Of a stretch of 14,528 bases of DNA, positions 1 through 12,026 are shown in pieces. The position numbers were made by a program, and so were the translations under genes. The DNA comes from Candidatus Hadarchaeota archaeon. GTDB taxonomy: Archaea > CAYQAE01 > CAYVLA01. How positions within the stretch are numbered: position 1 is the first letter of the stretch; each line of letters starts with the position of its first letter. The stretch is taken from assembly GCA_964460695.1 (NCBI GenBank), contig CAYWSC010000011.1, forward strand, positions 1 to 14,528, read 5' to 3'. The notes under the pieces were generated by a model, which worked only from the letters and a program-made list of their open reading frames with translations, did not search any database and was not told the DNA's origin.

Positions 1-740
1 ACGCGATGGCCCTCAAGGCAGAACATGCCATCGAGATCCTTGAGACGCAGGGACCGAGGCAGACCCTCTCATACATGAAGAGGATGATGCAGGATGCCCA
101 AGTTCGGGGTGCGCCTCGCTCGACCAAGTCGTTTGTCAAAGACGAGTCGATATCGGCCTTCACGGAATACCTAGAGAGACTGGTATACGCGGGTGCAGAT
201 CATCCGAAGATGTCCATGGTCGAGAAAATCGTCCTAGAGGAGATTAGGAAGAATCCTGAGAGTCGAATCATAGTCTTCACGAACTTCCGCGACACCGTCG
301 ACTTGATAGTGGAGCGGCTCTCCAGATACCCCCTCCTCCGGGTCACGAGATTCGTCGGCCAGTCTTCGAGAAGGTCTGCAGGCCTAACCCAGAGGGAGCA
401 GAGCAGAATCCTGGATCTCTTTAGAAGCGGCCGCTTCAACGTCCTGGTCGCCACCTCTGTGGCTGAGGAAGGCCTGGACATAGCTGAGGTCCAGATGGTG
501 CTTTTCTACGACTGCACGCCAAGCGCGATAAGGAACATTCAGAGAAGGGGCCGGACGGGCAGGAAAGGAGCCGGAAGGGTGGTCATCCTGATCACAGAGA
601 ACACGAGGGAAGAGGCCTACCACTGGGCAGGACAGAGCAGAGAGAAGAAGATGAGACAGCTTCTTAGGAGGATCGATGAGTCCCTCAAGAAGAGGCAGTT
701 GAGCCTCGACAGCTTCTACGCTGCTAGAACCTCCTCCTGA
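1..740 (+). CDS. Superfamily-2 helicase, C-terminal (HELICc) part, Hef/ERCC4-helicase-like; 5'-truncated by the window edge
   Basis: Translation of 6..740 carries helicase motifs IV-VI: IIVFTNFRDTVDLI, VLVATSVAEEGLDI, QRRGRTGR. The N-terminal DEAD/DEAH half is missing, so the gene must continue upstream of position 1. The ORF stops about 80 aa after motif VI with no nuclease domain. Confidence 0.8.
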   Translation, partial: AMALKAEHAIEILETQGPRQTLSYMKRMMQDAQVRGAPRSTKSFVKDESISAFTEYLERLVYAGADHPKMSMVEKIVLEEIRKNPESRIIVFTNFRDTVDLIVERLSRYPLLRVTRFVGQSSRRSAGLTQREQSRILDLFRSGRFNVLVATSVAEEGLDIAEVQMVLFYDCTPSAIRNIQRRGRTGRKGAGRVVILITENTREEAYHWAGQSREKKMRQLLRRIDESLKKRQLSLDSFYAARTSS

Positions 741-1185: not shown

Positions 1186-2031
1186 CTAGGGCATCAGCCT
1201 CAGCTTGAAGTCTATGGCCCTCGGGGAGTGGGTCAGCAACCCTATCGAGATGACATCCACCCCCAGCCTAGCGAGCTCCCTCACCTCCTCGAGCGATACG
1301 TTGCCGGATGCCTCCACCGTGACGGAGTCTCTAAGGCCTCTCTCCTTGAGAAGATCCAAGGCGGCAGAGATCTCCTCTCTAGACATATTGTCAAGCATCA
1401 CTATGTCGGCCCCCGCCTCCGCCGCAGCTGCTGCTCCGTCTGGACTGCTAACCTCCACCTCGATCTTCCGCACGAAGCTCGCCCTGCCCTTGGCCGCCTG
1501 GACGCAGGAGGACACGTCGCCGAAAGCCCTCACATGGTTGTCCTTGATCAGAACGCAGTCATGGAGAGCCATCCTATGGGTATCCCCGCCTCCCAGCTCG
1601 ACGGCCCGCTTGTCGAGCCACCTAAGGCCTGGGGCAGTCTTCCTAGTGGCAGCCACCTTCACATCGGGATTGCCGAGACGTGCCTCCTCGGCGAACCTGG
1701 AGGTGAGGGTCGCTATGCCGCTCATCCTCGAAAGAATGTTGAGAAGCGACCTCTCAAGAACCAAGATGGAGTCTTCTTTGCCGTGGAGTTCCAGCACGGT
1801 CTCGTCAGCCTTCACCCTCTCTCCATCCCCGCGAAGGGGCTCGCATTCCACCTCGAACATCTCTGCCAGTTCCAGCGACTCCCTGACTCCGGCTAGGACG
1901 CATTCCTCCCTCGGGAAGACCTCCGCCTCCACAACCACGGGCCTTGCCAGAATCTCCGTTGTCAGATCGCCGAAGTAGAGGTCCTCCTCAAGTATCCTCA
2001 AAAGCCTCTTTCTCAGGATCGGGTCTGCCAT
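1186..2031 (-). CDS. nadC: Nicotinate-nucleotide pyrophosphorylase (carboxylating) / quinolinate phosphoribosyltransferase
   Basis: 281 aa. The N-terminus LRILEEDLYFGDLTT and the central RKTAPGLRWLDKRAV...DNMS region are typical QPRTase. It is the last gene of the nadX-nadA-nadC cluster and sits only 2 nt from the nadA stop. Confidence 0.9.
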   Translation of the reverse strand: MADPILRKRLLRILEEDLYFGDLTTEILARPVVVEAEVFPREECVLAGVRESLELAEMFEVECEPLRGDGERVKADETVLELHGKEDSILVLERSLLNILSRMSGIATLTSRFAEEARLGNPDVKVAATRKTAPGLRWLDKRAVELGGGDTHRMALHDCVLIKDNHVRAFGDVSSCVQAAKGRASFVRKIEVEVSSPDGAAAAAEAGADIVMLDNMSREEISAALDLLKERGLRDSVTVEASGNVSLEEVRELARLGVDVISIGLLTHSPRAIDFKLRLMP

Positions 2032-2033
2032 CC

Positions 2034-3005
2034 TTACCTCCTCCCCAGATCCAGCATCCTCTGCGTCACCCTTCTCACGTCTCTCGCTATGGATGGATCG
2101 ACTTTGACCTCGTACTTATCGTTTTCTAGGGAATCTTTGAGCTTCTCCATGTCTATTGAGCGCATACCTCGGCACAGGGCCTCGCTGAGCGCAGGGAAGA
2201 ACCTCTTTTCGGGGAAGAGCCTGGCGAGGGTCTCGGCCATGGTGGCCTCGGTTCCGATGATGAACTCGTCGGCATCCGACTCCCGGGCCCTTGCAACCAT
2301 CCCCCCTGTGCTAACGACATAGTCAGCCAGGTCGACAACCTCTGGGTTGCATTCAGGATGGATGAGGATCTCGGCTGCCGGATGTATCCTCTTAGCCCTT
2401 TGTATGTCCTGCGTCGTAATCATCTTGTGCACGTAGCAGCCACCATCATCGGGAAGGGGTATGATGACCTTTTCCGGGAGCTGACTCTGAACGTACAGGG
2501 CCAGGTTCCTGTCGGGTCCAAACAGGATCTCCTCCTGCTCCAAGGACGAAACCACCTTCACGGCGTTTGCCGAGGTACATATCACGTCGGCCTCCGCCTT
2601 CGCCGAGGCTAATGAGTTTATGTAGAGGACTACGGCAGCTTCTGGATGCTGCCGCCTGGCCGCCCTGACCTGTTCTGGCCTCAGCATCGCCGCCATATCG
2701 CAGATGGCACGCCGGCTAGGGACGTAGACATCCTTGTCGGGGTTGAGGACAGACGCGCTCTCCGCCATGAAGTCCACGCCGCAGAAGACTATCCTTTCGA
2801 ATCCCTTTGATCGCGATGCGGCCATACATAACTCTAGGGAGTCCCCCACGTGGTCCGAGACCTCCTGTATCTCGGTCGGCTGATAGTTATGGCAGAGTAT
2901 CAGCGCTTTCTTCTCCTTCTTGAGCCGAAGAACTGCCTCTTTCAGGCCTTTCCTGTCAACCAATCTCAACATCGACCTAGGTCCCGATAACGATGCTTTC
3001 CTCAA
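2034..3005 (-). CDS. nadA: Quinolinate synthase A
   Basis: 323 aa with NadA hallmarks: ALILCHNYQ, FCGVDFMAE, ILIHPEC, TGGM. The called start at 3005 overlaps nadX by 29 nt. An in-frame ATG at 2972 (MLRLVDRKG...) is an alternative start that would remove the overlap. Confidence 0.9.
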   Translation of the reverse strand: MRKASLSGPRSMLRLVDRKGLKEAVLRLKKEKKALILCHNYQPTEIQEVSDHVGDSLELCMAASRSKGFERIVFCGVDFMAESASVLNPDKDVYVPSRRAICDMAAMLRPEQVRAARRQHPEAAVVLYINSLASAKAEADVICTSANAVKVVSSLEQEEILFGPDRNLALYVQSQLPEKVIIPLPDDGGCYVHKMITTQDIQRAKRIHPAAEILIHPECNPEVVDLADYVVSTGGMVARARESDADEFIIGTEATMAETLARLFPEKRFFPALSEALCRGMRSIDMEKLKDSLENDKYEVKVDPSIARDVRRVTQRMLDLGRR

Positions 3006-3762
3006 TGCCTTGAATGGCCCTCATCACGGACAGGGCGGCTAGGTAGCTCGTTCTGGGATTGTCCGGCGAGGGGAGATTGGAGATGAAGAACTTTGCCTCT
3101 CCGAAAGCCCCCTTAACCTCCACTTCGTGCACGTTGGTCCTAATCTTTGGGTCTACAAAGATCCTCACGTGAGGCCTCACACCGGACGCAATGGCTAGGG
3201 CAGCTGCAACATTGATGTTCCTCGGATAGAGCTCCACTGCCCTCTCCACGCTTCCCTCGAAAACAAGCCTGCGCTCAGTCGTCTCTTCCATGCCCAGACT
3301 GGCAGGATTCTTGGTAGTGGTGAGGGTGATGCTCTCTATCCCCCCTAGCGATCCCGCCTTGAGAACATCGAGTCCGCCGATCGCCCCCGATGGCACAATG
3401 ATCTTGCACCCATGCTCGCTCGCCAGTGACACCAGCCTTGCCCTCAACCCGTCGTCGAGGAGTGCACCGACGCTGAGAACCATCAGGTCTTTTCCGGACC
3501 TCAGAACCCTTTCGGAGTACTGCTTCACCGCGTCCACGCTCGCAGCTTCAACGACCAGCTGAACCTCACTCTTCATGAACTCGTCGAAGCTCTCCTTGGC
3601 CAGCGAGGGATCCCCAAGACGGTGGGCAAGTAGCTTTGACCGGTCGACCTTCGAGTCAAAAAGTGCCCCTATCGAGGCGCGTATCTTTCCCTCTCTCACG
3701 GCCTTTGCGACTAGACTCCCGACGTTGCCGCATCCGATAAGGCCTATGATCGTACCTCTCAC
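2977..3762 (-). CDS. nadX: L-aspartate dehydrogenase (NAD(P)-dependent), first enzyme of the NadX route to iminoaspartate
   Basis: 261 aa, GTG start. An N-terminal Rossmann motif IGLIGCGNVG is followed by aspartate-dehydrogenase-type sequence. It lies directly upstream of nadA and nadC on the same strand. Confidence 0.85.
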   Translation of the reverse strand: MRGTIIGLIGCGNVGSLVAKAVREGKIRASIGALFDSKVDRSKLLAHRLGDPSLAKESFDEFMKSEVQLVVEAASVDAVKQYSERVLRSGKDLMVLSVGALLDDGLRARLVSLASEHGCKIIVPSGAIGGLDVLKAGSLGGIESITLTTTKNPASLGMEETTERRLVFEGSVERAVELYPRNINVAAALAIASGVRPHVRIFVDPKIRTNVHEVEVKGAFGEAKFFISNLPSPDNPRTSYLAALSVMRAIQGIEESIVIGT

Positions 3763-5448: not shown

Positions 5449-5755
5449 CGCGGCACCTTTCGAATGGGGGATAGCCCGGTACGGATTTCCGGCCTCTCTG
5501 GCTTTCGAACCGCAGTCCACGGATATCTCCGAGCCTCACTCACCAGAGTCCGTGATGCTTCCGTGGGGGCCTTGCTCCCTGACCACTACACCACCGGGCT
5601 ATCTGTCATAATTTGGTCCAGATCATTCTTAACTATTTCCGGCATTCGCGTTTAGGTCTTTTTGCCCCCTCTCACACGGCGGCTGGGACGAACAACGAGA
5701 AAAGAGATATTAGAGAAATGAGGGGTCCTCGCCACGAGGTGTCTCGTTGGCGAAG

Positions 5756-6772
5756 ATGAAACAAGCTAACCTCGTGGCGACCGAGAAGATCGTAATAGAG
5801 GAGGCCGAAGTTCCCGAACCCGCGGAGAACGAGGTTCAGATAAAGGTGGCCGTCTGCGGCATCTGCGGCTCCGACGTGCACGCATACCACGGCCGGCATC
5901 CCTTCGTCCACCCGCCAATCGTTCCCGGTCACGAATTCTCGGGGACCGTCTCGAAGTTGGGCGAAGGGGTGGAAGGACTTGAGGTCGGTGACAGAGTGGT
6001 CGTCGAGCCATCCCTCACCTGTGGGAAATGCTTCAACTGTAAGACGGGCAGGTACAACATCTGCACCGAACTCAAGGTACTCGGCTGTCAGGCACCAGGT
6101 GCCTTTGCCCAGTACATCGTCGTCCCTGCTAACAAGGTCTACAAGATGCCGGAGGGCATGACCTTCGACCAGGGAGCCCTCATCGAGCCGGCTGCCGTCG
6201 GAGTTCACGCCGTCCGGAGAAGCGAGATATCGCTCGGCGACAGAGTGGTGGTTCTAGGAGCGGGCGTGATAGGACTGATGATCATGCAGGCTGCTAGGGC
6301 CGCCGGTGCAGGGGAGATCATCATAACTGGTCATCACGAGGAGCGTCTGGCCGTCGCAAGGAAGCTCGGAGCCGACGTGACGTTCCTCGCCGGCGACACG
6401 GTCAAGTTCATAAGAGACAGATATGGCCCTGACGGGATAGACATAGTCTACGAGGCAGTCGGCGTGGGAACCACGATCAATGAGGCGATCGAGATAGCTC
6501 GGAAGGGGACCAAGATCGTTGTCGTTGGCGTCTTCGGCCAAGACCCACCCACCAAGATTGGTCTAGTTCAGGACCACGAGATAGATATGCGGGGATCGCT
6601 GATGTACGTGAACGAGGACTACCCGAGGACCCTCGAGCTCGTCTCCTCGGGCAGGATCCAGACAGACCCACTGGTCAGCGCAAGATACCCCCTTGAGAAG
6701 ATAGCTGACGGATTCAAACATATCCGGGAGAAGAGGGGAGAGACCCTCAAGGTCCTAGTCGACATCCCGTAG
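5756..6772 (+). CDS. Zinc-dependent medium-chain alcohol/polyol dehydrogenase (threonine/sorbitol dehydrogenase-like)
   Basis: Catalytic Zn ligands CGICGSDVH and GHEFSG; structural-Zn Cys cluster CGKCFNCKTGRYNIC; Rossmann motif VVLGAGVIGLM. The called TTG start at 5747 (MAKMKQ) is less likely than ATG 5756 (MKQ...). Confidence 0.85.
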   Translation: MKQANLVATEKIVIEEAEVPEPAENEVQIKVAVCGICGSDVHAYHGRHPFVHPPIVPGHEFSGTVSKLGEGVEGLEVGDRVVVEPSLTCGKCFNCKTGRYNICTELKVLGCQAPGAFAQYIVVPANKVYKMPEGMTFDQGALIEPAAVGVHAVRRSEISLGDRVVVLGAGVIGLMIMQAARAAGAGEIIITGHHEERLAVARKLGADVTFLAGDTVKFIRDRYGPDGIDIVYEAVGVGTTINEAIEIARKGTKIVVVGVFGQDPPTKIGLVQDHEIDMRGSLMYVNEDYPRTLELVSSGRIQTDPLVSARYPLEKIADGFKHIREKRGETLKVLVDIP

Positions 6773-9700
6773 CCGGCCTCTCCTCGCCAACAGGCCCGCC
6801 AGCGGCAGAGAGACGACGAGTAGCAGACCGATCCATAGCGGGAGCTGCGATCCCTTGGGAACCGCGACACCGGCGTGGCCCGCGCCCCCTCCCTGCGACC
6901 CTGCAGGCTGGGGTCCGAACTTGGACTGAACCTCTCCCTTCACCTCGAAGGGTTGGGGAGGTGCCTCGGCGTTGTCCTCGGGCCTGTAGTACGAGTAGGC
7001 TCTGCTGGTTCCTCCCCTCGCCTTGACAGGCATAACCGCAAGTATCTGGAACTGTATCTCGATCTCCTCTCCCCTCTTGAGGTCGTCGATGTAGAAGATG
7101 ACCTTCCTAGCTGCGACCTCGACCCTGCTGGCCAAGCCCTCGGAGACCACCTTGTCAAGGGAGGACTGGATAACCGAGAACCCTGTCGGTACGGCGACGT
7201 CGAGTATCATCATGCCGGTAGAGTTGTGCGGTCCATTGTACCTGACCCGGGCCGTCACGCCCACCACATCGTTCACATCCGCGGTCGTCGTATTGTAGCT
7301 GACCTCGAACTCGAACTCCTTCTGCCCTGACGGTTCCCAAGGGACGTTGAACCTCTTGACGAGTTGGAACATCACCTTGCCGCCTCCCTCCAGCCTAAGC
7401 TCGAGCTCTTTCCCGCCGAGAGGTATGGATACGACGTTGAGCACGTCGAAATTGTCCCTCGTCAAGCGGAGAGACTGGATCTCCCTGCCGTCAACCACGA
7501 TGTGTATCACCGAGTCGATGTTTCTCGACTGGAGCCTAGCCGCAGTCATGAGAGCCTTCATAGCCATGACTGTATCCTGAGTGCTGCAGAATCCTCCCAG
7601 AGAGTTCCTCTGGGACGCTATCCACCGCACAGCCTGCTCGGCCTCGGATCGGCCCGCCAGCATGAGCGCCAGTGCCGCATAGGACGTCGCTTCTACGACG
7701 CCAGAGCTGCCGCCCTTGGCTGGCGACCAGTAAAGGCCGTTTTCGTCCGAGCTTGCGAGCTTGAGCAACTCCGAGATTGCCTCGTCCGCCTTGCTTGACC
7801 CCACCTTCTCCAACAGGTAGGCCGATATCGCCGCGGCGTACGGGTCACCCGTTCCCAGTCCATTCTCCTCGATGAATCGTATGCCCCGCTCCAAGGCCTC
7901 CGAGGCCCTCCCGTAGTCTGCCAGAGCTATCGAGACGAAAGAAGTGAGGGCAACCCTTGAGCCCGGATTTAGACCTCCCATCATCTCACCGTGAACGACG
8001 AACCCTACGGGACTCCAAGAGCCATTTGAATTCTGATGCGACTCTATCCAGTTGGCCGCGTCCGCCAGGACCTTCTCGTCTACCGCTAGAACCTCTCTCG
8101 CCTCGCTGAAGACATCGAGCACGAAGGCGGTCAGCCATAGGCTCCCCTCCTCGTCGCTTGAGCCAAACGCCGAGAAGGATCCGTCTCCTCTCCTAAAGGT
8201 CAGCTCCCTCTGGTAACCGGTGGTCAGATACAACTCCGCCTTTGCCCGTACCTCTGGAACGAGCTGATCGGTCGCGTCGAGGTACCTGAGTATCTCCAGA
8301 TCAGGGGCCATGAACATCATGTTCTGCTCTCCACAACCGTAGGGCATGCCGAGAAGGTCTTCTACCCCACTTATGACCTGCCCGACAAGGCTGGGCGTGA
8401 TGCTCACCATCACCCTAGCCGAGTCGTTGACAATCCCCTCTGGCAGGGAAAGGTCAAGCGTCGCAGGCTTCTCCTCTGTTATGAATCCGTTCACAACCTC
8501 CTCGCGGCGGACGCCCTCCGGCTCGACCAGCATCTCCCTCCGCACGGCATCCGCCCTCCTGGGCGACCGAGCAGTGATCTCGACTTTGAATTGACCGATC
8601 TTCACAGGCTTTATCATGAACGATACAGCGACGACGGAGTTCCCAGGGATCTGCACCGTCTTCACAGCTTCGTCGAGCAGGGTGAACCAGTCCGCGGGCG
8701 TTATCGAGACTTGGACTTTCTGGCTAGACGAGAGGTAGTTGTAGATCTGAACCATCACGGGAAACTCCTCGCCACGCGTCACGGCGTATGGAAGATCCGG
8801 CTCTACGAAGAAGTCCTGAAACACCCTGAGGGATGCCTCTGCCAACCCTATGCCCTCCGAGCTGGACGAGACGGCGTGAAGGCGCCAGGTAGTTATCGAG
8901 TCGGGGACCGTTAGCCGCAGAGTTGTATGGCCCGTATCGTCGGTCAACAGGGTTGCGTTCCAGTACCAAGTCTCGGGGAAGAACTGACGTATCCTCCTGA
9001 CCTCTGCCAGTCCCTCTTCAGTACCCTCGCTCTGAGGAGCTGACGAGTGGGCAAGATCCATTCCCGCTTCGGCCTCCCTGACCCCTCCTTTGGCATACAG
9101 GATCATCGCTCCCCCATATCCCTCGGGCAGTACGATGTCCTTCGAGGCTATGACCTGTAGCCCGGACTCTTCGAACACATCTCTGGCTCCCTTGGTCAGC
9201 GGAGCGCCCCAGAACCTCTCCTCGGGATGGGCCTCGGCCCTTGGCTCCATGAAGATCTTCTCAAGTTCGTCGAATATCTGCTTCAGATTGAGCCTGCCCT
9301 CGTTGAGCGCATAGACCGACTCATCGACAATTGACAGCCCTATCATGGTTGCAACGCCGCGGCTGGATCTGAGATCGATCAGGACTGTGTCCCCGGGTGA
9401 GGCTGTATCGTTCGAAAATTCAGCCGACAGCCCAACGGGCGCCTCGATCTCGACGTCAAAGGGTAGCGAGTCTGCCGATATCTCCATGTTCGGGTTTATG
9501 GTGTACACCACGATGCGTGCTCTGGGCATCATCGACGGCGTGACCTTGAAAGAGATGTATCTGCCGGTCGTGTACCCAGAGAACACGGCGCGCCCTCCCG
9601 CAACTACGTCGTAATAGAGGGTCCTCCTCCCAGTCGAGAAGACCTTGAATGTGACCTCGTCGCCGACCTTGACGGCTCCTTCGGAGGTTTGCCTGATGTG

Positions 9701-11023
9701 AATGAAGTACCCGCTGGGAGAGTACATGCTCCTAAGAGTTACACGGCTCTCGGCCTTGTCCTCCGGTACCTGGGCAACTACTTCCGCCGAGGTACACTTC
9801 TCCGGAACGTCGAACTCAATGAGGGCAGTTCCCCTGAATGTCGAGACATCCTTGCTCCTACTGATAGTCGACCCGTCGTCCAGCACGAACCTCGCCTCGA
9901 CTGAGACATGCTTCTCCATGGGCTCTCCGCCTGGCGTCTCGGTAACGACGAGGAGCTCCATGGGCAGGCCTGGCTTTATCGTCTCGGCAGAAGGGATAAG
10001 CTGAATCACGGTCGACGACGGGGCTATCTTGACAAGCCTAGATGCTTCTTCCTGGTGCCCAGATCCATCCGTAACGGTTACGTTCAGCATCACCGATCCC
10101 ATTCCACCGGCACCGTATGTCCCTGCTACATAGCTGACCGGGGGTAGGGTGAAGCTGAGCGATCCGTCTTCGAGTTCGCCCCTGAAGGATGCATACTGCT
10201 CCCACTCAGCCAGGTACTTGTAGGCCCTGACCTCTACCATTCCCTGAACGGGCTTCCCGAAGAAGTATCTACAATCGATTCTCCCGCTGATCTCCTCGTC
10301 CACTAGGAACCAGTCCCTCGGCAGAGCAACATCCACTTTGAACTTAGGGAGCACGTACTTCTCGACCCTGATGTCAACCGTGGACATAGAGTCGGTTCCC
10401 TGGGCGACGATCTTCCACGTCCCGAGGTTCACCTCCCTCGCCAAAACCATGTCGAAAGCAGCCACTCCAAACCCGTTGGTGACAAGTGGCTTTCTAAACA
10501 CCCTGATGCCCTTGGAGTCGGATATAGAGACGTTCAGGCTGACCGACACTGGTTTCAGGTCGGAGTTCACTGCAAGTACCCTGCCATGCACCGTCTGGCC
10601 AGGCTTGTATATCGGCTTGTCGGTCTCCAACAGGAGAGTGATGCCCGCAGAAATGGCGAGCTGACCCGTCAATTGCTCATGGGTCCTTGGATTTTCCAAG
10701 ACGATGGTGTAGGTCCCGCGTTGAAGGCGAGGCACGTGGAACCTGACCACCTGATGACCGTCAGGCCCAGTCCACCCCGAGAAGAGGTCGATCCGACTCC
10801 CTTTCAGATCCAGTATGTATATGTCGACGGGGGCGTTGACTGGACGGTTCGTCTTGACGGAAAGGGAGTCTACGGTCACTGATGCCTCCGTTCCCGTGTA
10901 GAGCGTCTTTGGCGCGACCATCACGTACCGGATGCCAGCCTCTCCCTTTCCCTGCAGAGAGGGAGAGACAATCTGCAGAAGGATGACCAGCACGACGAAG
11001 ACGGCTCCAGATGCCGGCTTCAC
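6755..11023 (-). CDS. Alpha-2-macroglobulin / thioester-containing protein (TEP) family, full length: MG domains, bait-like region, thioester domain, receptor-binding-like domain, with signal peptide and C-terminal TM anchor
   Basis: 1422 aa, GTG start preceded by GGGAGGTG. Canonical thioester GCGEQ (aa 896-900, nt 8324-8338) within PYGCGEQNMMFMAPDLEILRYL; downstream TGYQRELTFRRGDGSFSAFG and SLWLTAFVLDVF (thioester-domain helices). His1011 in VVHGEMMGG (nt 7991-7993) sits at the C3 catalytic-His position. MG2-like TDKPIYKPGQTV; post-bait FFPETWYWN...TVPDSITTWRL...ASLRVFQDFFVEPDLPYAVTRGEEF; C-terminal A2M_recep-like MMILDVAVPTGFSV. These are near-identical to the hallmark blocks of vertebrate A2M/C3. 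Confidence 0.92.
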   Translation of the reverse strand: MKPASGAVFVVLVILLQIVSPSLQGKGEAGIRYVMVAPKTLYTGTEASVTVDSLSVKTNRPVNAPVDIYILDLKGSRIDLFSGWTGPDGHQVVRFHVPRLQRGTYTIVLENPRTHEQLTGQLAISAGITLLLETDKPIYKPGQTVHGRVLAVNSDLKPVSVSLNVSISDSKGIRVFRKPLVTNGFGVAAFDMVLAREVNLGTWKIVAQGTDSMSTVDIRVEKYVLPKFKVDVALPRDWFLVDEEISGRIDCRYFFGKPVQGMVEVRAYKYLAEWEQYASFRGELEDGSLSFTLPPVSYVAGTYGAGGMGSVMLNVTVTDGSGHQEEASRLVKIAPSSTVIQLIPSAETIKPGLPMELLVVTETPGGEPMEKHVSVEARFVLDDGSTISRSKDVSTFRGTALIEFDVPEKCTSAEVVAQVPEDKAESRVTLRSMYSPSGYFIHIRQTSEGAVKVGDEVTFKVFSTGRRTLYYDVVAGGRAVFSGYTTGRYISFKVTPSMMPRARIVVYTINPNMEISADSLPFDVEIEAPVGLSAEFSNDTASPGDTVLIDLRSSRGVATMIGLSIVDESVYALNEGRLNLKQIFDELEKIFMEPRAEAHPEERFWGAPLTKGARDVFEESGLQVIASKDIVLPEGYGGAMILYAKGGVREAEAGMDLAHSSAPQSEGTEEGLAEVRRIRQFFPETWYWNATLLTDDTGHTTLRLTVPDSITTWRLHAVSSSSEGIGLAEASLRVFQDFFVEPDLPYAVTRGEEFPVMVQIYNYLSSSQKVQVSITPADWFTLLDEAVKTVQIPGNSVVAVSFMIKPVKIGQFKVEITARSPRRADAVRREMLVEPEGVRREEVVNGFITEEKPATLDLSLPEGIVNDSARVMVSITPSLVGQVISGVEDLLGMPYGCGEQNMMFMAPDLEILRYLDATDQLVPEVRAKAELYLTTGYQRELTFRRGDGSFSAFGSSDEEGSLWLTAFVLDVFSEAREVLAVDEKVLADAANWIESHQNSNGSWSPVGFVVHGEMMGGLNPGSRVALTSFVSIALADYGRASEALERGIRFIEENGLGTGDPYAAAISAYLLEKVGSSKADEAISELLKLASSDENGLYWSPAKGGSSGVVEATSYAALALMLAGRSEAEQAVRWIASQRNSLGGFCSTQDTVMAMKALMTAARLQSRNIDSVIHIVVDGREIQSLRLTRDNFDVLNVVSIPLGGKELELRLEGGGKVMFQLVKRFNVPWEPSGQKEFEFEVSYNTTTADVNDVVGVTARVRYNGPHNSTGMMILDVAVPTGFSVIQSSLDKVVSEGLASRVEVAARKVIFYIDDLKRGEEIEIQFQILAVMPVKARGGTSRAYSYYRPEDNAEAPPQPFEVKGEVQSKFGPQPAGSQGGGAGHAGVAVPKGSQLPLWIGLLLVVSLPLAGLLARRGRLRDVD
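6785..6844 (-). other. C-terminal transmembrane anchor of the A2M/TEP protein (LPLWIGLLLVVSLPLAGLLA) followed by the basic tail RRGRLRDVD; a Gly/Pro-rich linker (GPQPAGSQGGGAGHAGVAVPKGSQ) precedes it
   Basis: A single hydrophobic stretch of about 20 residues at the extreme C-terminus plus an Arg-rich tail. The tripartite signature resembles archaeal/bacterial C-terminal sorting or anchor signals but has no PGF/PEP motif. Confidence 0.55.
10949..11023 (-). other. N-terminal Sec-type signal peptide of the A2M/TEP protein (aa 1-25, MKPASGAVFVVLVILLQIVSPSLQG)
   Basis: A positively charged n-region (K2), a hydrophobic core of about 15 residues, and an SPSLQG cleavage-like site. The MG1-like domain begins immediately after. 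Confidence 0.6.
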
Positions 11024-11029
11024 ACATCA

Positions 11030-11037
11030 CACCTCCC
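11030..11037 (-). promoter_or_regulatory. Shine-Dalgarno sequence GGGAGGTG, 6 nt upstream of the GTG start of the A2M/TEP gene
   Basis: Read directly on the minus strand: ...gatGGGAGGTGtgatgtGTGAAGCCG... Confidence 0.55.
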
Positions 11038-11279: not shown

Positions 11280-12026
11280 CTACTTCTCTAGGAACCTCAT
11301 CAGTTCCATGGGGACCGGCAAAACGACGGTCGTCGGCTTACCAGTGGTAGCATCGGTTATCGCTCCGAGCAGGCGAAGCTGAAGAGCTCCTGGGCTCTCG
11401 GTCATTATCTTCGTCGCCTTCGCGAGCATCTCTGCCGCCTGCTTCTCTCCTTGGGCTATTATCACCCTAGAACGCCTCTGCCTCTCTGCCTCTGCCTGCC
11501 GAGCCATCGCGACCTTCATCTCGTCGGGGACCTCTACGTTCTTCAGCTCGACTGCTGAGACCTTGATTCCCCAGGGATCCGTTGCTTCATCCACCGTCGC
11601 CTGTAGCCGCTTGTTCAACTCTTCCCTCTCGGTCAAGATCTGGTCGAGGAACGCCGTCCCTATGACGTTTCTCAAGCTCGTCTGGGCATAGAGAGAGGTC
11701 GCCGCGATGTAGTTGGTCACCTGGACAAGAGCCTTCTCCGGATCCATAACCCTCATGTACACCACTGCGTCCACACGAACAGGGACGTTGTCCCGGGTTA
11801 TGACCTCCTGGGCGGGAACATCAAGAACCATCGTCCTGAGATCAACCCTGATCATCTTCTCGAAGATCGGAATGATGAAGAAGAGGCCTGGCCCCCTTGC
11901 CCCTACGAGGCGTCCGAGTCTAAAGATCACGCCTCTCTCGTATTCCCTGACGATCTTTATCGCAGATGCGAGAATGATTAAAAGGAAGAAGACCAATGCA
12001 GACACTGGTGCTAGCCAACCAGCCAT
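11280..12026 (-). CDS. Stomatin/prohibitin-family (SPFH/band-7) membrane protein
   Basis: N-terminal TM helix (VSALVFFLLIILASAI) then an SPFH domain (IKIVREYERGVIFRLGR...PAQEVITRDNVPVRVDAVVYMRV) and a coiled-coil ARQAEAERQRR. No NfeD partner is adjacent. Confidence 0.85.
   Translation of the reverse strand: MAGWLAPVSALVFFLLIILASAIKIVREYERGVIFRLGRLVGARGPGLFFIIPIFEKMIRVDLRTMVLDVPAQEVITRDNVPVRVDAVVYMRVMDPEKALVQVTNYIAATSLYAQTSLRNVIGTAFLDQILTEREELNKRLQATVDEATDPWGIKVSAVELKNVEVPDEMKVAMARQAEAERQRRSRVIIAQGEKQAAEMLAKATKIMTESPGALQLRLLGAITDATTGKPTTVVLPVPMELMRFLEK

What the first reader, a model, noticed from the sequence alone, without database searches (positions are those of the whole stretch)
6755..6870. 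Unusual anchoring of the A2M/TEP: Sec signal peptide at the N-terminus plus Gly/Pro linker, single C-terminal TM helix and Arg-rich tail
Bacterial A2Ms are N-terminal lipoproteins (lipobox Cys) tethered to the inner membrane facing the periplasm. This protein instead has a cleavable-looking signal peptide (MKPASGAVFVVLVILLQIVSPSLQG) and ends with GPQPAGSQGGGAGHAGVAVPKGSQ-LPLWIGLLLVVSLPLAGLLA-RRGRLRDVD. That is a flexible linker, one TM helix and a basic cytoplasmic tail, the tripartite layout of archaeal C-terminal anchors and of archaeosortase/exosortase substrates, but without a PGF/PEP motif. That topology would hang the 1400-residue trap outside the membrane on a stalk, between the membrane and the S-layer.
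Basis: partly seen in the sequence, partly recalled or inferred. Interest (0 to 1): 0.6.

Follow-up and report, generated by a model that had tools for sequence, protein, structure and literature searches.

The report
C-terminally membrane-anchored archaeal alpha-2-macroglobulin
A Hadarchaeota archaeon encodes a 1422-residue alpha-2-macroglobulin-type protease trap that appears to be tethered to the cell membrane by one helix at its far end, where its relatives use a lipid-modified front end; this is a lineage-specific swap of anchor, not a new kind of system.

Summary
ORF 6755-11023 (-) encodes a complete A2M/TEP: MG2, MG3, bait region, a CGEQ thioester domain and the receptor-binding domain. 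It has a Sec-type signal peptide without a lipobox. Its C-terminus is a roughly 47-residue disordered linker, a 20-residue hydrophobic segment (LPLWIGLLLVVSLPLAGLLA) and the tail RRGRLRDVD.

The start codon is secure, and the hydrophobic segment is transmembrane-like rather than amphipathic. The same layout occurs in all ten members of the nearest clade. These come from Hadarchaeota MAGs that share gene order with the window.

Of the 120 best homologs, only the nine clade members among them have the C-terminal helix. Methanosarcinaceae, Altiarchaeota and Chloroflexota relatives carry an N-terminal lipobox and stop right after the last domain. ANME-2 relatives look like they have an uncleaved N-terminal anchor.

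No curated C-terminal sorting-signal model matches the tails, while a synthetic PGF-CTERM control does. The best reading is a type I, permanently helix-anchored ectoprotein.

A cleaved, sortase-type signal is not excluded. One proline at the helix start is invariant, and a neighbouring Hadarchaeota gene carries a [IL]PE[FA]-helix-basic tail. Whether these genomes encode an archaeosortase could not be tested.

Verdict: a new variant of a known kind, of moderate to low interest.

The parts
6755..11023 (-). Gene for the A2M/TEP family protein (1422 aa plus stop). Pfam domains: MG2, MG3, A2M_BRD (bait region), A2M, TED_complement, A2M_recep.
   Evidence: The best solved relative by sequence is human CD109 (8s3o_A, E 5.9e-128).
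11030..11036 (-). GGAGGTG Shine-Dalgarno-like motif, 6 nt upstream of the GTG start codon at 11021-11023. An in-frame TGA stop lies at 11027-11029.
   Evidence: Read directly from the sequence.
10949..11023 (-). Sec-type signal peptide, residues 1-25 (MKPASGAVFVVLVILLQIVSPSLQG). The n-region is MK, the h-region is about 13 residues, and a helix-breaking SP motif follows. There is no lipobox Cys. Cleavage is predicted after G25, or after A29 (GEA|G).
   Evidence: Q17, S20 and P21 are invariant in the clade. Relatives end this region with ASA|EY.
8324..8335 (-). Thioester motif C897-G-E-Q900 in the TED domain.
   Evidence: invariant G896, C897, G898, E899, Q900.
6845..6985 (-). Linker, or stalk, residues 1347-1393, rich in Gly, Pro and Ala. 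It contains the clade-conserved GEVxS[KR]FG and G-x-hydrophobic-G motifs and is otherwise variable.
   Evidence: The AlphaFold model gives pLDDT below 50 and no secondary structure here. Alignment. Homologs outside the clade stop before this region.
6785..6844 (-). Predicted single transmembrane helix, residues 1394-1413 (LPLWIGLLLVVSLPLAGLLA). Pro1395, encoded at 6839-6841, is invariant in the clade.
   Evidence: for the hydrophobicity and moment values, for the modelled helix 1394-1419, and for the invariant Pro.
6758..6784 (-). Basic cytoplasmic tail RRGRLRDVD (4 Arg, net charge +2), followed by the stop codon at 6755-6757.
   Evidence: All clade members end in a K/R-containing tail with net charge +1 to +4.
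5747..6772 (+). Convergent Zn-dependent alcohol/threonine dehydrogenase-family gene. Its last 18 nt overlap the end of the A2M gene. It is a conserved neighbour, not part of the anchor.
11280..12026 (-). SPFH/band-7 membrane protein gene, directly upstream on the same strand. It is a conserved neighbour in Hadarchaeota, and no functional link is shown.

Best explanation
The protein is a type I single-pass membrane protein. The N-terminal Sec signal peptide takes the chain across the cytoplasmic membrane and is removed by signal peptidase I. The roughly 1320-residue folded body, comprising the MG domains, bait region, thioester domain and receptor-binding domain, ends up outside the cell. The last hydrophobic segment (residues 1394-1413) stops transfer and stays in the membrane. 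The Arg-rich end remains in the cytoplasm, as the positive-inside rule predicts. A disordered linker of about 47 residues acts as a flexible stalk between the membrane and the folded body.

Functionally, the C-terminal helix replaces the N-terminal lipid anchor (lipobox Cys) used by the closest archaeal and bacterial homologs. Either way, the thioester protease trap stays tethered at the cell surface and is not released.

Shown here: the sequence features, their conservation within the clade, their mutual exclusivity with lipoboxes, and the lack of any known sorting motif. Inferred: signal-peptide cleavage, the topology, that the anchor is permanent, and the protease-trap function.
For: The domain architecture is complete and the CGEQ motif is intact.

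The start codon is fixed by an upstream stop and a Shine-Dalgarno motif.

Only two segments of the protein are strongly hydrophobic. The N-terminal one has a short h-region of about 13 residues followed by SP, and relatives carry an AxA-type site (ASA|EY). The C-terminal one is 20 uncharged residues with mean hydrophobicity 0.82 and moment 0.11, followed by RRGRLR.

AlphaFold modelling of the last 233 residues gives a well-folded receptor-binding domain, an unstructured stretch at 1347-1393, and a helix at 1394-1419.

The layout is conserved in all nine clade proteins from the protein search and in one more from metagenomes. These come from genomes that share gene order with the window and are labelled Hadarchaeota.

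The two anchor types never co-occur. Nine of nine proteins with the C-terminal helix lack a lipobox, and all 56 lipobox homologs among the best 120 lack a C-terminal helix. Chloroflexota homologs are mostly lipobox proteins without a C-terminal helix. ANME-2 homologs have a long N-terminal hydrophobic segment with no Cys.

No NCBIfam C-terminal sorting model reaches its cutoff on any of the nine tails at E<=10, while a synthetic PGF-CTERM control scores 51 bits against TIGR04126.

A profile built from the A2M tails recognises only the A2M proteins among 8984 open frames in the window and the 78 genome loci then held. It does not pick up the neighbouring [IL]PE[FA]-tailed protein in L052.
Against: No dedicated predictor (SignalP, DeepTMHMM) could be run, and there is no experiment.

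The window's helix contains two prolines, and its simple Hessa-scale sum is +1.0 kcal/mol, which is marginal. Relatives range from +0.03 to -3.7. The scale values were taken from memory, so these sums are approximate.

The helix pLDDT in the model is only 51-65.

The invariant Pro abutting the helix and the very short basic end are also what a cleavable sorting signal looks like. At least three related Hadarchaeota loci encode a second secreted protein with a conserved [IL]PE[FA]-helix-basic tail, so a sortase-type system may exist in this lineage.
Confidence: 0.7

Rival explanations
1. The tail is a cleavable C-terminal sorting signal of a new, lineage-specific type: hydrophobic-Pro-hydrophobic, then a helix, then a basic cluster. 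After Sec export, an archaeosortase-like or other intramembrane protease would remove the helix. That would leave the protein lipid-anchored at its new C-terminus, or release it.
For: The layout is tripartite, with the motif abutting the helix and the basic cluster at the extreme end.

Pro1395 is the only invariant residue in the last 33 columns across the nine sequences. All exosortase and archaeosortase motifs described (PEP, PGF, PEF, PIP, VPXXXP) contain Pro; this is general knowledge, from the review PMC6098224 and the Haft 2023 preprint 10.1101/2023.06.07.544157.

A second secreted protein with an invariant P-E before a C-terminal helix and basic end lies 2-3 kb from the A2M gene in L052, L080 and L081. 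This hints that the lineage has a PEF/PEP-type sorting system.
Against: No curated sorting-domain model hits any tail. The best result is one sub-threshold hit to GVDTG-CTERM on one relative, 18 bits against a cutoff of 29.

The residue after the Pro varies (L, M, F, W, A), unlike real signature motifs.

The linker is rich in Gly, Pro and Glu. It is not rich in Thr and Ser, as reported for archaeosortase and CGP-CTERM substrates (Haft preprint).

The tail profile does not recognise the [IL]PE[FA] tail.

No other protein carrying this tail was found. However, the global searches lacked power or failed their own positive control.

No multi-pass protease gene lies within 10 kb in any of the six Hadarchaeota loci.
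Confidence: 0.18
2. The N-terminal hydrophobic segment is not cleaved. The protein would then be held at both ends, by an N-terminal signal anchor and a C-terminal helix, with both termini in the cytoplasm and the body looped outside.
For: In relatives, the uncharged N-terminal run is 21-26 residues long. The window protein lacks the clean ASA|E site of its relatives; the aligned position has Ile at -1 (alignment made by eye).
Against: The run is split by an invariant S-P helix breaker, leaving an h-region of only about 12-13 residues. That is typical of cleaved signal peptides and too short for a membrane span.

Acceptable (-3,-1) sites exist in the window protein, LQG|K and GEA|G.

ANME-2 homologs show what a real signal anchor looks like in this family: about 20 continuous hydrophobic residues and no small-residue site.
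Confidence: 0.08
3. The tail is an annotation or assembly artefact, caused by read-through, a frameshift or a wrong start codon, and is not part of a real protein.
For: The window is a short MAG contig. The last 18 nt of the gene overlap the convergent ADH gene.
Against: The tail occurs in ten clade sequences, whose sources span NCBI, JGI, ENA and Logan. The reading frame is preserved, and indels in the linker are in frame. The start codon is bounded by an upstream stop.
Confidence: 0.02

Closest known systems
Lipobox-anchored prokaryotic A2Ms of the same subfamily (Methanococcoides, Methanolobus and other Methanosarcinaceae, Altiarchaeota, Chloroflexota). Archaeal A2M homologs were noted by Makarova et al. 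2021 (PMC8416519).
   Same: They have the same full-length architecture and the CGEQ thioester, at 42-53% identity over about 93% of the length. They are exported and predicted to be tethered to the cytoplasmic membrane.
   Different: Those proteins have an N-terminal lipobox Cys and end directly after the last beta-strand (...EIVVV). The Hadarchaeota clade has a signal-peptidase-I-type signal and about 60 extra C-terminal residues forming the linker, helix and basic tail.
E. coli ECAM/YfhM-type bacterial A2M, an inner-membrane lipoprotein that acts as a snap-trap protease inhibitor (Garcia-Ferrer 2015, as cited in PMC8416519).
   Same: It is a membrane-tethered thioester protease trap outside the cytoplasmic membrane. 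The window protein most likely works in the same way.
   Different: It belongs to a different subfamily. The window protein matches the metazoan-type Pfam models (TED_complement, A2M_recep). bMG10 is only a sub-threshold hit. No ECAM-type chain is among the best 60 PDB matches. The anchor is at the opposite end and is proteinaceous rather than lipid.
Metazoan membrane-bound TEPs: CD109 (GPI-anchored) and Mcr (C-terminal transmembrane helix).
   Same: CD109 is the best solved relative by sequence (8s3o_A, E 5.9e-128). Both CD109 and Mcr are tethered through the C-terminus (PMC7016707).
   Different: The tails do not align; the CD109 match ends at query residue 1317. The intervening prokaryotic relatives have no tail, so the C-terminal anchor very probably arose independently. 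Mcr has lost the thioester and has an LDLa domain, and CD109's hydrophobic end is replaced by GPI.
Archaeal C-terminal anchors: permanent helix anchors such as Sulfolobus SlaB, and archaeosortase substrates (PGF-CTERM with ArtA, PEF-CTERM with ArtC, CGP-CTERM in Thermococcales).
   Same: They combine a signal peptide with a flexible linker, one C-terminal hydrophobic helix and a basic end (PMC6098224; preprint 10.1101/2023.06.07.544157).
   Different: The A2M tails have no PGF, PEF, PIP, VPXXXP or CGP signature, and no curated model hits them. No other A2M-family protein with such an anchor is described in the papers I read. Within this subfamily, only the Hydrogenedentota locus L028 has a similar, unrelated tail.

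Membership tests
Alpha-2-macroglobulin / thioester-containing protein superfamily | MG domains, bait-region domain, A2M domain, TED and receptor-binding domain, in canonical order | tested here: met
   Pfam hits all above their cutoffs: MG2 1.5e-21, MG3 6.4e-13, A2M_BRD 1.2e-25, A2M 6.4e-30, TED_complement 4.1e-72, A2M_recep 4.5e-16.
Alpha-2-macroglobulin / thioester-containing protein superfamily | Intact CGEQ thioester motif | tested here: met
   G896-C-G-E-Q900 is present and invariant in the clade.
Alpha-2-macroglobulin / thioester-containing protein superfamily | Protease trapping or covalent capture activity | not testable with these tools
   This needs biochemistry.
Lipoprotein-type prokaryotic A2M (N-terminal lipid anchor) | Lipobox with an invariant Cys at the end of the signal peptide | tested here: not met
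   There is no Cys in residues 1-45 of the window protein, and no lipobox in any of the nine clade proteins. 56 of the 120 best homologs outside the clade have one.
Type I single-pass (C-terminal helix-anchored) surface protein | Cleavable N-terminal Sec signal peptide | tested here: inconclusive
   The n-, h- and c-region layout, the short h-region with an SP helix breaker, and (-3,-1)-compatible sites are present and conserved. No trained predictor or experiment was available.
Type I single-pass (C-terminal helix-anchored) surface protein | One hydrophobic segment near the C-terminus that is non-amphipathic and long enough to span the membrane | tested here: met
   The segment is 20 uncharged residues with mean hydrophobicity 0.82 and moment 0.11. 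Clade ranges are 0.78-0.92 and 0.01-0.14. AlphaFold models a helix at 1394-1419.
Type I single-pass (C-terminal helix-anchored) surface protein | [quoted passage not shown] | tested here: met
   The tail RRGRLRDVD has net charge +2. All nine clade tails have net charge +1 to +4.
PGF-CTERM / archaeosortase A substrates | PGF signature motif abutting the helix (model TIGR04126) | tested here: not met
   No hit on any of the nine tails at E<=10. A synthetic PGF-CTERM control scored 51.1 bits against a cutoff of 24.5.
Other curated C-terminal sorting domains in NCBIfam (for example GVDTG-, JDVT-, Heimdall-, GPS- and MYXO-CTERM, all of which appeared among the control's hits) | A match to the family's signature-motif model at or above its cutoff | tested here: not met
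   The only hit is sub-threshold: GVDTG_CTERM at 18.4 bits against a cutoff of 29, on one relative (P0006). By eye, the tails contain no PEF, PEP, PIP, VPXXXP or CGP motif.
Archaeosortase/exosortase-dependent sorting in general | A cognate sorting enzyme encoded in the same genome, and several substrates sharing the signal | not testable with these tools
   Only about 10 kb of flank per locus could be read. No multi-pass protease gene is present there. No archaeosortase query sequence was available. The global tail searches were underpowered or failed their control.

The most novel reading that the evidence does not exclude
The Hadarchaeota A2M tail, and the [IL]PE[FA] tail of the neighbouring DcrB-like protein, are substrates of a so far undescribed Pro-dependent C-terminal sorting system in Hadarchaeota. 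The helix would be cleaved off and the trap attached to an archaeal lipid through its new C-terminus. This would be a prokaryotic, independently evolved counterpart of the GPI anchor of CD109, which is the closest solved relative of this protein.
Probability: 0.15. Interest if true: 0.7.

Novelty: new variant of a known kind. Interest (0 to 1): 0.35.

Why it matters
The result shows that, within one A2M subfamily, what is conserved is membrane tethering of the trap, not the way it is achieved. Methanosarcinaceae, Altiarchaeota and Chloroflexota use a lipobox, ANME-2 appears to use an N-terminal signal anchor, and Hadarchaeota use a C-terminal helix. This supports the view that prokaryotic A2Ms work as cell-bound guards of the envelope rather than as secreted inhibitors.

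It also gives a first, small glimpse of how the almost uncultured Hadarchaeota display surface proteins. The two secreted proteins seen in these loci both have C-terminal helix tails, and neither has a lipobox.

The practical consequence is modest. Annotation pipelines and anyone modelling archaeal A2Ms should not assume an N-terminal lipid anchor.

Tried and rejected
1. Exact-sequence lookup of the window protein in the contig index found nothing.

2. A 29-position profile of the tails, searched against 1.84 billion representative proteins, gave no hits at E<=0.001. On the clade itself the profile scores only 29-47 bits, so the search had little power.

3. A 61-position profile of the tails, searched against the 5.8 billion-protein index, gave no hits at E<=10. 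The same profile scores 67-95 bits on the clade locally. The search therefore failed its own positive control, and I treat it as uninformative.

The scan with the C-terminal 233 residues added only one new clade member. It added no non-A2M protein carrying the tail.

5. A homolog search on the L052 protein with the IPEF tail found only itself and one fragment. No larger family could be defined until L080 and L081 were read.

6. Haft et al. 2012 (PMC3256604) is not held in the library.

7. No paper in the library mentions both archaeosortase and Hadarchaeota.

8. I considered and rejected a class III (prepilin-type) signal peptide. No [KR]-[GAS] cleavage motif precedes the h-region.

9. I considered and rejected a Tat signal. 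There is no twin-arginine motif in the window protein.

10. Rfam, tRNA, and sigma-70 promoter and terminator scans of the window found nothing relevant.
Full report
**What is in the window.** The longest ORF, 6755-11023 on the minus strand, encodes a 1422-residue protein. Pfam finds the full A2M/TEP set in canonical order, all above their cutoffs: MG2, MG3, bait-region domain, A2M, TED_complement and A2M_recep. The CGEQ thioester motif is present at residues 897-900.

By sequence, the best solved relative is human CD109 (8s3o_A, E 5.9e-128), followed by human A2M, A2ML1, C4, TEP1 and C3. ECAM-type bacterial A2Ms are not among the best 60 matches. This protein therefore belongs to the metazoan-like prokaryotic A2M subfamily, not the ECAM/YfhM subfamily.

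**The observation.** The start is a GTG at 11023. An in-frame TGA lies two codons upstream, and GGAGGTG sits 6 nt before the start, so the N-terminus cannot be longer. A shorter start at M35 would delete a segment that is conserved in every relative.

The interval 6755-6870 covers the stop codon and residues 1385-1422. On a Hessa-type scale, residues 1-25 and 1394-1413 are by far the two most hydrophobic 19-residue stretches of the protein. The scale values were taken from memory, so the sums are approximate.

The C-terminal segment, LPLWIGLLLVVSLPLAGLLA, has Eisenberg mean hydrophobicity 0.82 and helical hydrophobic moment 0.11. This is the signature of a membrane span, not of an amphipathic surface helix. 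Its simple free-energy sum is marginal (+1.0 kcal/mol) because of two prolines. Relatives range from +0.03 to -3.7.

It is followed by RRGRLRDVD. An AlphaFold model of the last 233 residues, built on a nine-sequence alignment, gives three regions:
- a well-folded receptor-binding domain (10-residue block mean pLDDT 74-92);
- no structure and pLDDT below 50 for residues 1347-1393;
- one helix at residues 1394-1419.

**Where it comes from.** The window shares gene order with three genome loci. The shared genes are Hef, NadC, NadA, aspartate dehydrogenase, a p27-type zinc ribbon, two small ORFs, Zn-ADH, the A2M and SPFH.

L001 and L052 are labelled Candidatus Hadarchaeota, and L051 is labelled uncultured Thermococci. 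Their A2Ms are 58-64% identical to the window's. The window is therefore a Hadarchaeota contig. The gene sits in a stable housekeeping neighbourhood, not on an island.

**Comparison with relatives.** The nearest clade has ten members. Nine come from the protein search (P0001 is the window protein itself). The tenth (L081) was the only new one from the metagenome scan. Of the 120 best homologs, only the nine clade proteins (58-100% identity) have a C-terminal hydrophobic helix, and none of them has a lipobox.

Fifty-six homologs have an N-terminal lipobox (for example SGCIG) and stop right after the last beta-strand (...EIVVV). These are Methanococcoides, Methanolobus, other Methanosarcinaceae and Altiarchaeota. 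About twenty ANME-2 homologs have a long uninterrupted N-terminal hydrophobic segment with no Cys and no small-residue cleavage site, which is probably a signal anchor. Planctomycete homologs have a signal peptide plus dockerin-like C-terminal additions.

Among the 78 genome loci, only the three Hadarchaeota loci and one Hydrogenedentota bacterium (L028, with an unrelated tail sequence) have a C-terminal helix. The Chloroflexota homologs I checked are mostly lipobox proteins.

So the two anchor types never co-occur in this data set. The roughly 60-residue C-terminal extension is a clade-specific addition.

Within the clade, the extension has these features:
- a conserved GEVxS[KR]FG motif;
- a G-x-hydrophobic-G motif;
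- a nearly fixed length;
- one invariant proline at the start of the helix (P1395);
- a basic end in every member.
Indels in the linker are in frame.

**Is it a known sorting signal?** I scanned the nine clade tails, plus the unrelated L028 tail, against NCBIfam at E<=10. None reached the cutoff of any model. The single weak hit was GVDTG-CTERM at 18 bits against a cutoff of 29, on one relative.

A synthetic PGF-CTERM tail, run as a control, scored 51 bits on TIGR04126. It also picked up several other CTERM models at low score, so the method works. By eye, the tails contain no PGF, PEF, PEP, PIP, VPXXXP or CGP motif.

The linker is rich in Gly, Pro and Glu. It is not rich in Thr and Ser, as described for archaeosortase and CGP-CTERM substrates (preprint 10.1101/2023.06.07.544157).

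**A complication found in passing.** In L052, L080 and L081, a DcrB/DUF1795-like secreted protein lies 2-3 kb from the A2M gene. It has a signal peptide and a C-terminal [IL]-P-E-[FA], then a hydrophobic stretch, then a basic end. The P-E is invariant across four sequences at 32-71% identity.

This looks like a PEF/PEP-CTERM-type signal, although no NCBIfam model recognises it. It suggests that Hadarchaeota may have a sortase-type system.

A profile built from the A2M tails does not recognise this tail, and the residue after the A2M proline is variable. I therefore keep the sorting-signal reading as a rival at about 0.18, not as the main explanation.

Whether an archaeosortase is encoded in these genomes could not be tested. 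Only 10 kb of flank per locus is readable, and those flanks contain no multi-pass protease gene.

**Mechanism.** The most likely sequence of events is as follows:
1. Sec export, driven by the N-terminal signal peptide.
2. Cleavage by signal peptidase I. Relatives have ASA|EY, and the window protein has LQG|K or GEA|G.
3. Translocation of the folded body to the outside.
4. Stop-transfer at the C-terminal helix, with the Arg-rich end kept in the cytoplasm.

The trap then sits on a flexible stalk of about 47 residues at the outer face of the membrane. It plays the role that the N-terminal lipid anchor plays in related A2Ms. Whether an S-layer lies above it is not known for this lineage.

**Comparison with what is known.** A signal peptide combined with a C-terminal helix is an ordinary archaeal way of holding surface proteins (PMC6098224). 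Archaeal A2M homologs have been noted before (PMC8416519). C-terminal anchoring also exists in metazoan TEPs: CD109 through GPI and Mcr through a helix (PMC7016707).

What is new is the combination, a prokaryotic A2M anchored by a C-terminal helix as a conserved trait of one archaeal lineage. I found no description of this in the papers I searched. The parallel with CD109 is best read as convergence, because the intervening prokaryotic relatives have no tail and the CD109 alignment stops at query residue 1317.

**Verdict.** This is a new variant of a known kind. Interest is 0.35. It would rise to about 0.7 if the tail turned out to be a new processed sorting signal, which I put at a probability of about 0.15.

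Noticed in passing
L052 6722-7699 (+); L080 3113-4093 (+); L081 2634-3668 (+); P0122: A DcrB/DUF1795-like secreted protein lies 2-3 kb from the A2M gene in three Hadarchaeota loci. It ends in [IL]-P-E-[FA], then a 14-20 residue hydrophobic stretch, then a basic end, and the P-E is invariant. This looks like a PEF/PEP-CTERM-type sorting signal, but no NCBIfam model hits it. The gene is absent from the window.
   Followed up: partly
window 6755-6772: The A2M gene and the convergent Zn-ADH gene overlap by 18 nt at their 3' ends, which leaves no room for a terminator. The overlap is 4 nt in L052, and there is none in L001 or L051.
   Followed up: partly
window 10958-10975 (residues 17-22 of the signal peptide): The signal peptide carries an unusually conserved Q-x-x-S-P-x-L motif, with Q17, S20 and P21 invariant across nine sequences that are only 57-64% identical overall.
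   Followed up: no
L028 7214-11230 (Hydrogenedentota MAG): This bacterial homolog has independently acquired the same layout, a signal-peptidase-I-type signal plus a C-terminal helix and an RGRRR tail (...GDMLVLGTVVLVFILARGRRRPSCRTT). Its tail sequence is unrelated and matches no sorting model.
   Followed up: partly
window 11280-12026 (-); L001 9036-9815; L052 9028-9795; L080 5452-6198: An SPFH/band-7 membrane protein gene is always directly upstream of the A2M gene on the same strand in Hadarchaeota (83-85% identical in L001 and L052). I did not examine whether the two are functionally linked.
   Followed up: no
P0012-P0034, P0037 (ANME-2 homologs): The ANME-2 A2M homologs have neither a lipobox nor a C-terminal helix. 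Instead they have a roughly 20-residue uninterrupted N-terminal hydrophobic segment (for example MNSNKLTPIIISLLAISLILLLVFPTITQP). This suggests a third, signal-anchor way of tethering the same protein.
   Followed up: partly
window 6845-6985 (linker): The linker is not free-form. GEVxS[KR]FG and a G-x-hydrophobic-G motif about 11 residues before the helix are conserved. Linker length is nearly fixed in the nine aligned clade members, apart from a six-residue insertion in one (P0007) and three extra residues in another.
   Followed up: no
A 61-position tail profile found nothing at E<=10 in the indexed protein search. The same profile scores 67-95 bits on the clade's own proteins locally. The word-index step evidently did not pass those proteins on for scoring.
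   Followed up: yes
window 1186-3762 (-) and 6-740 (+): A NAD biosynthesis cluster (nadC, nadA, aspartate dehydrogenase) and a Hef nuclease/helicase fragment, cut by the contig end, lie here. Both keep the same gene order as L001 and L051.
   Followed up: yes
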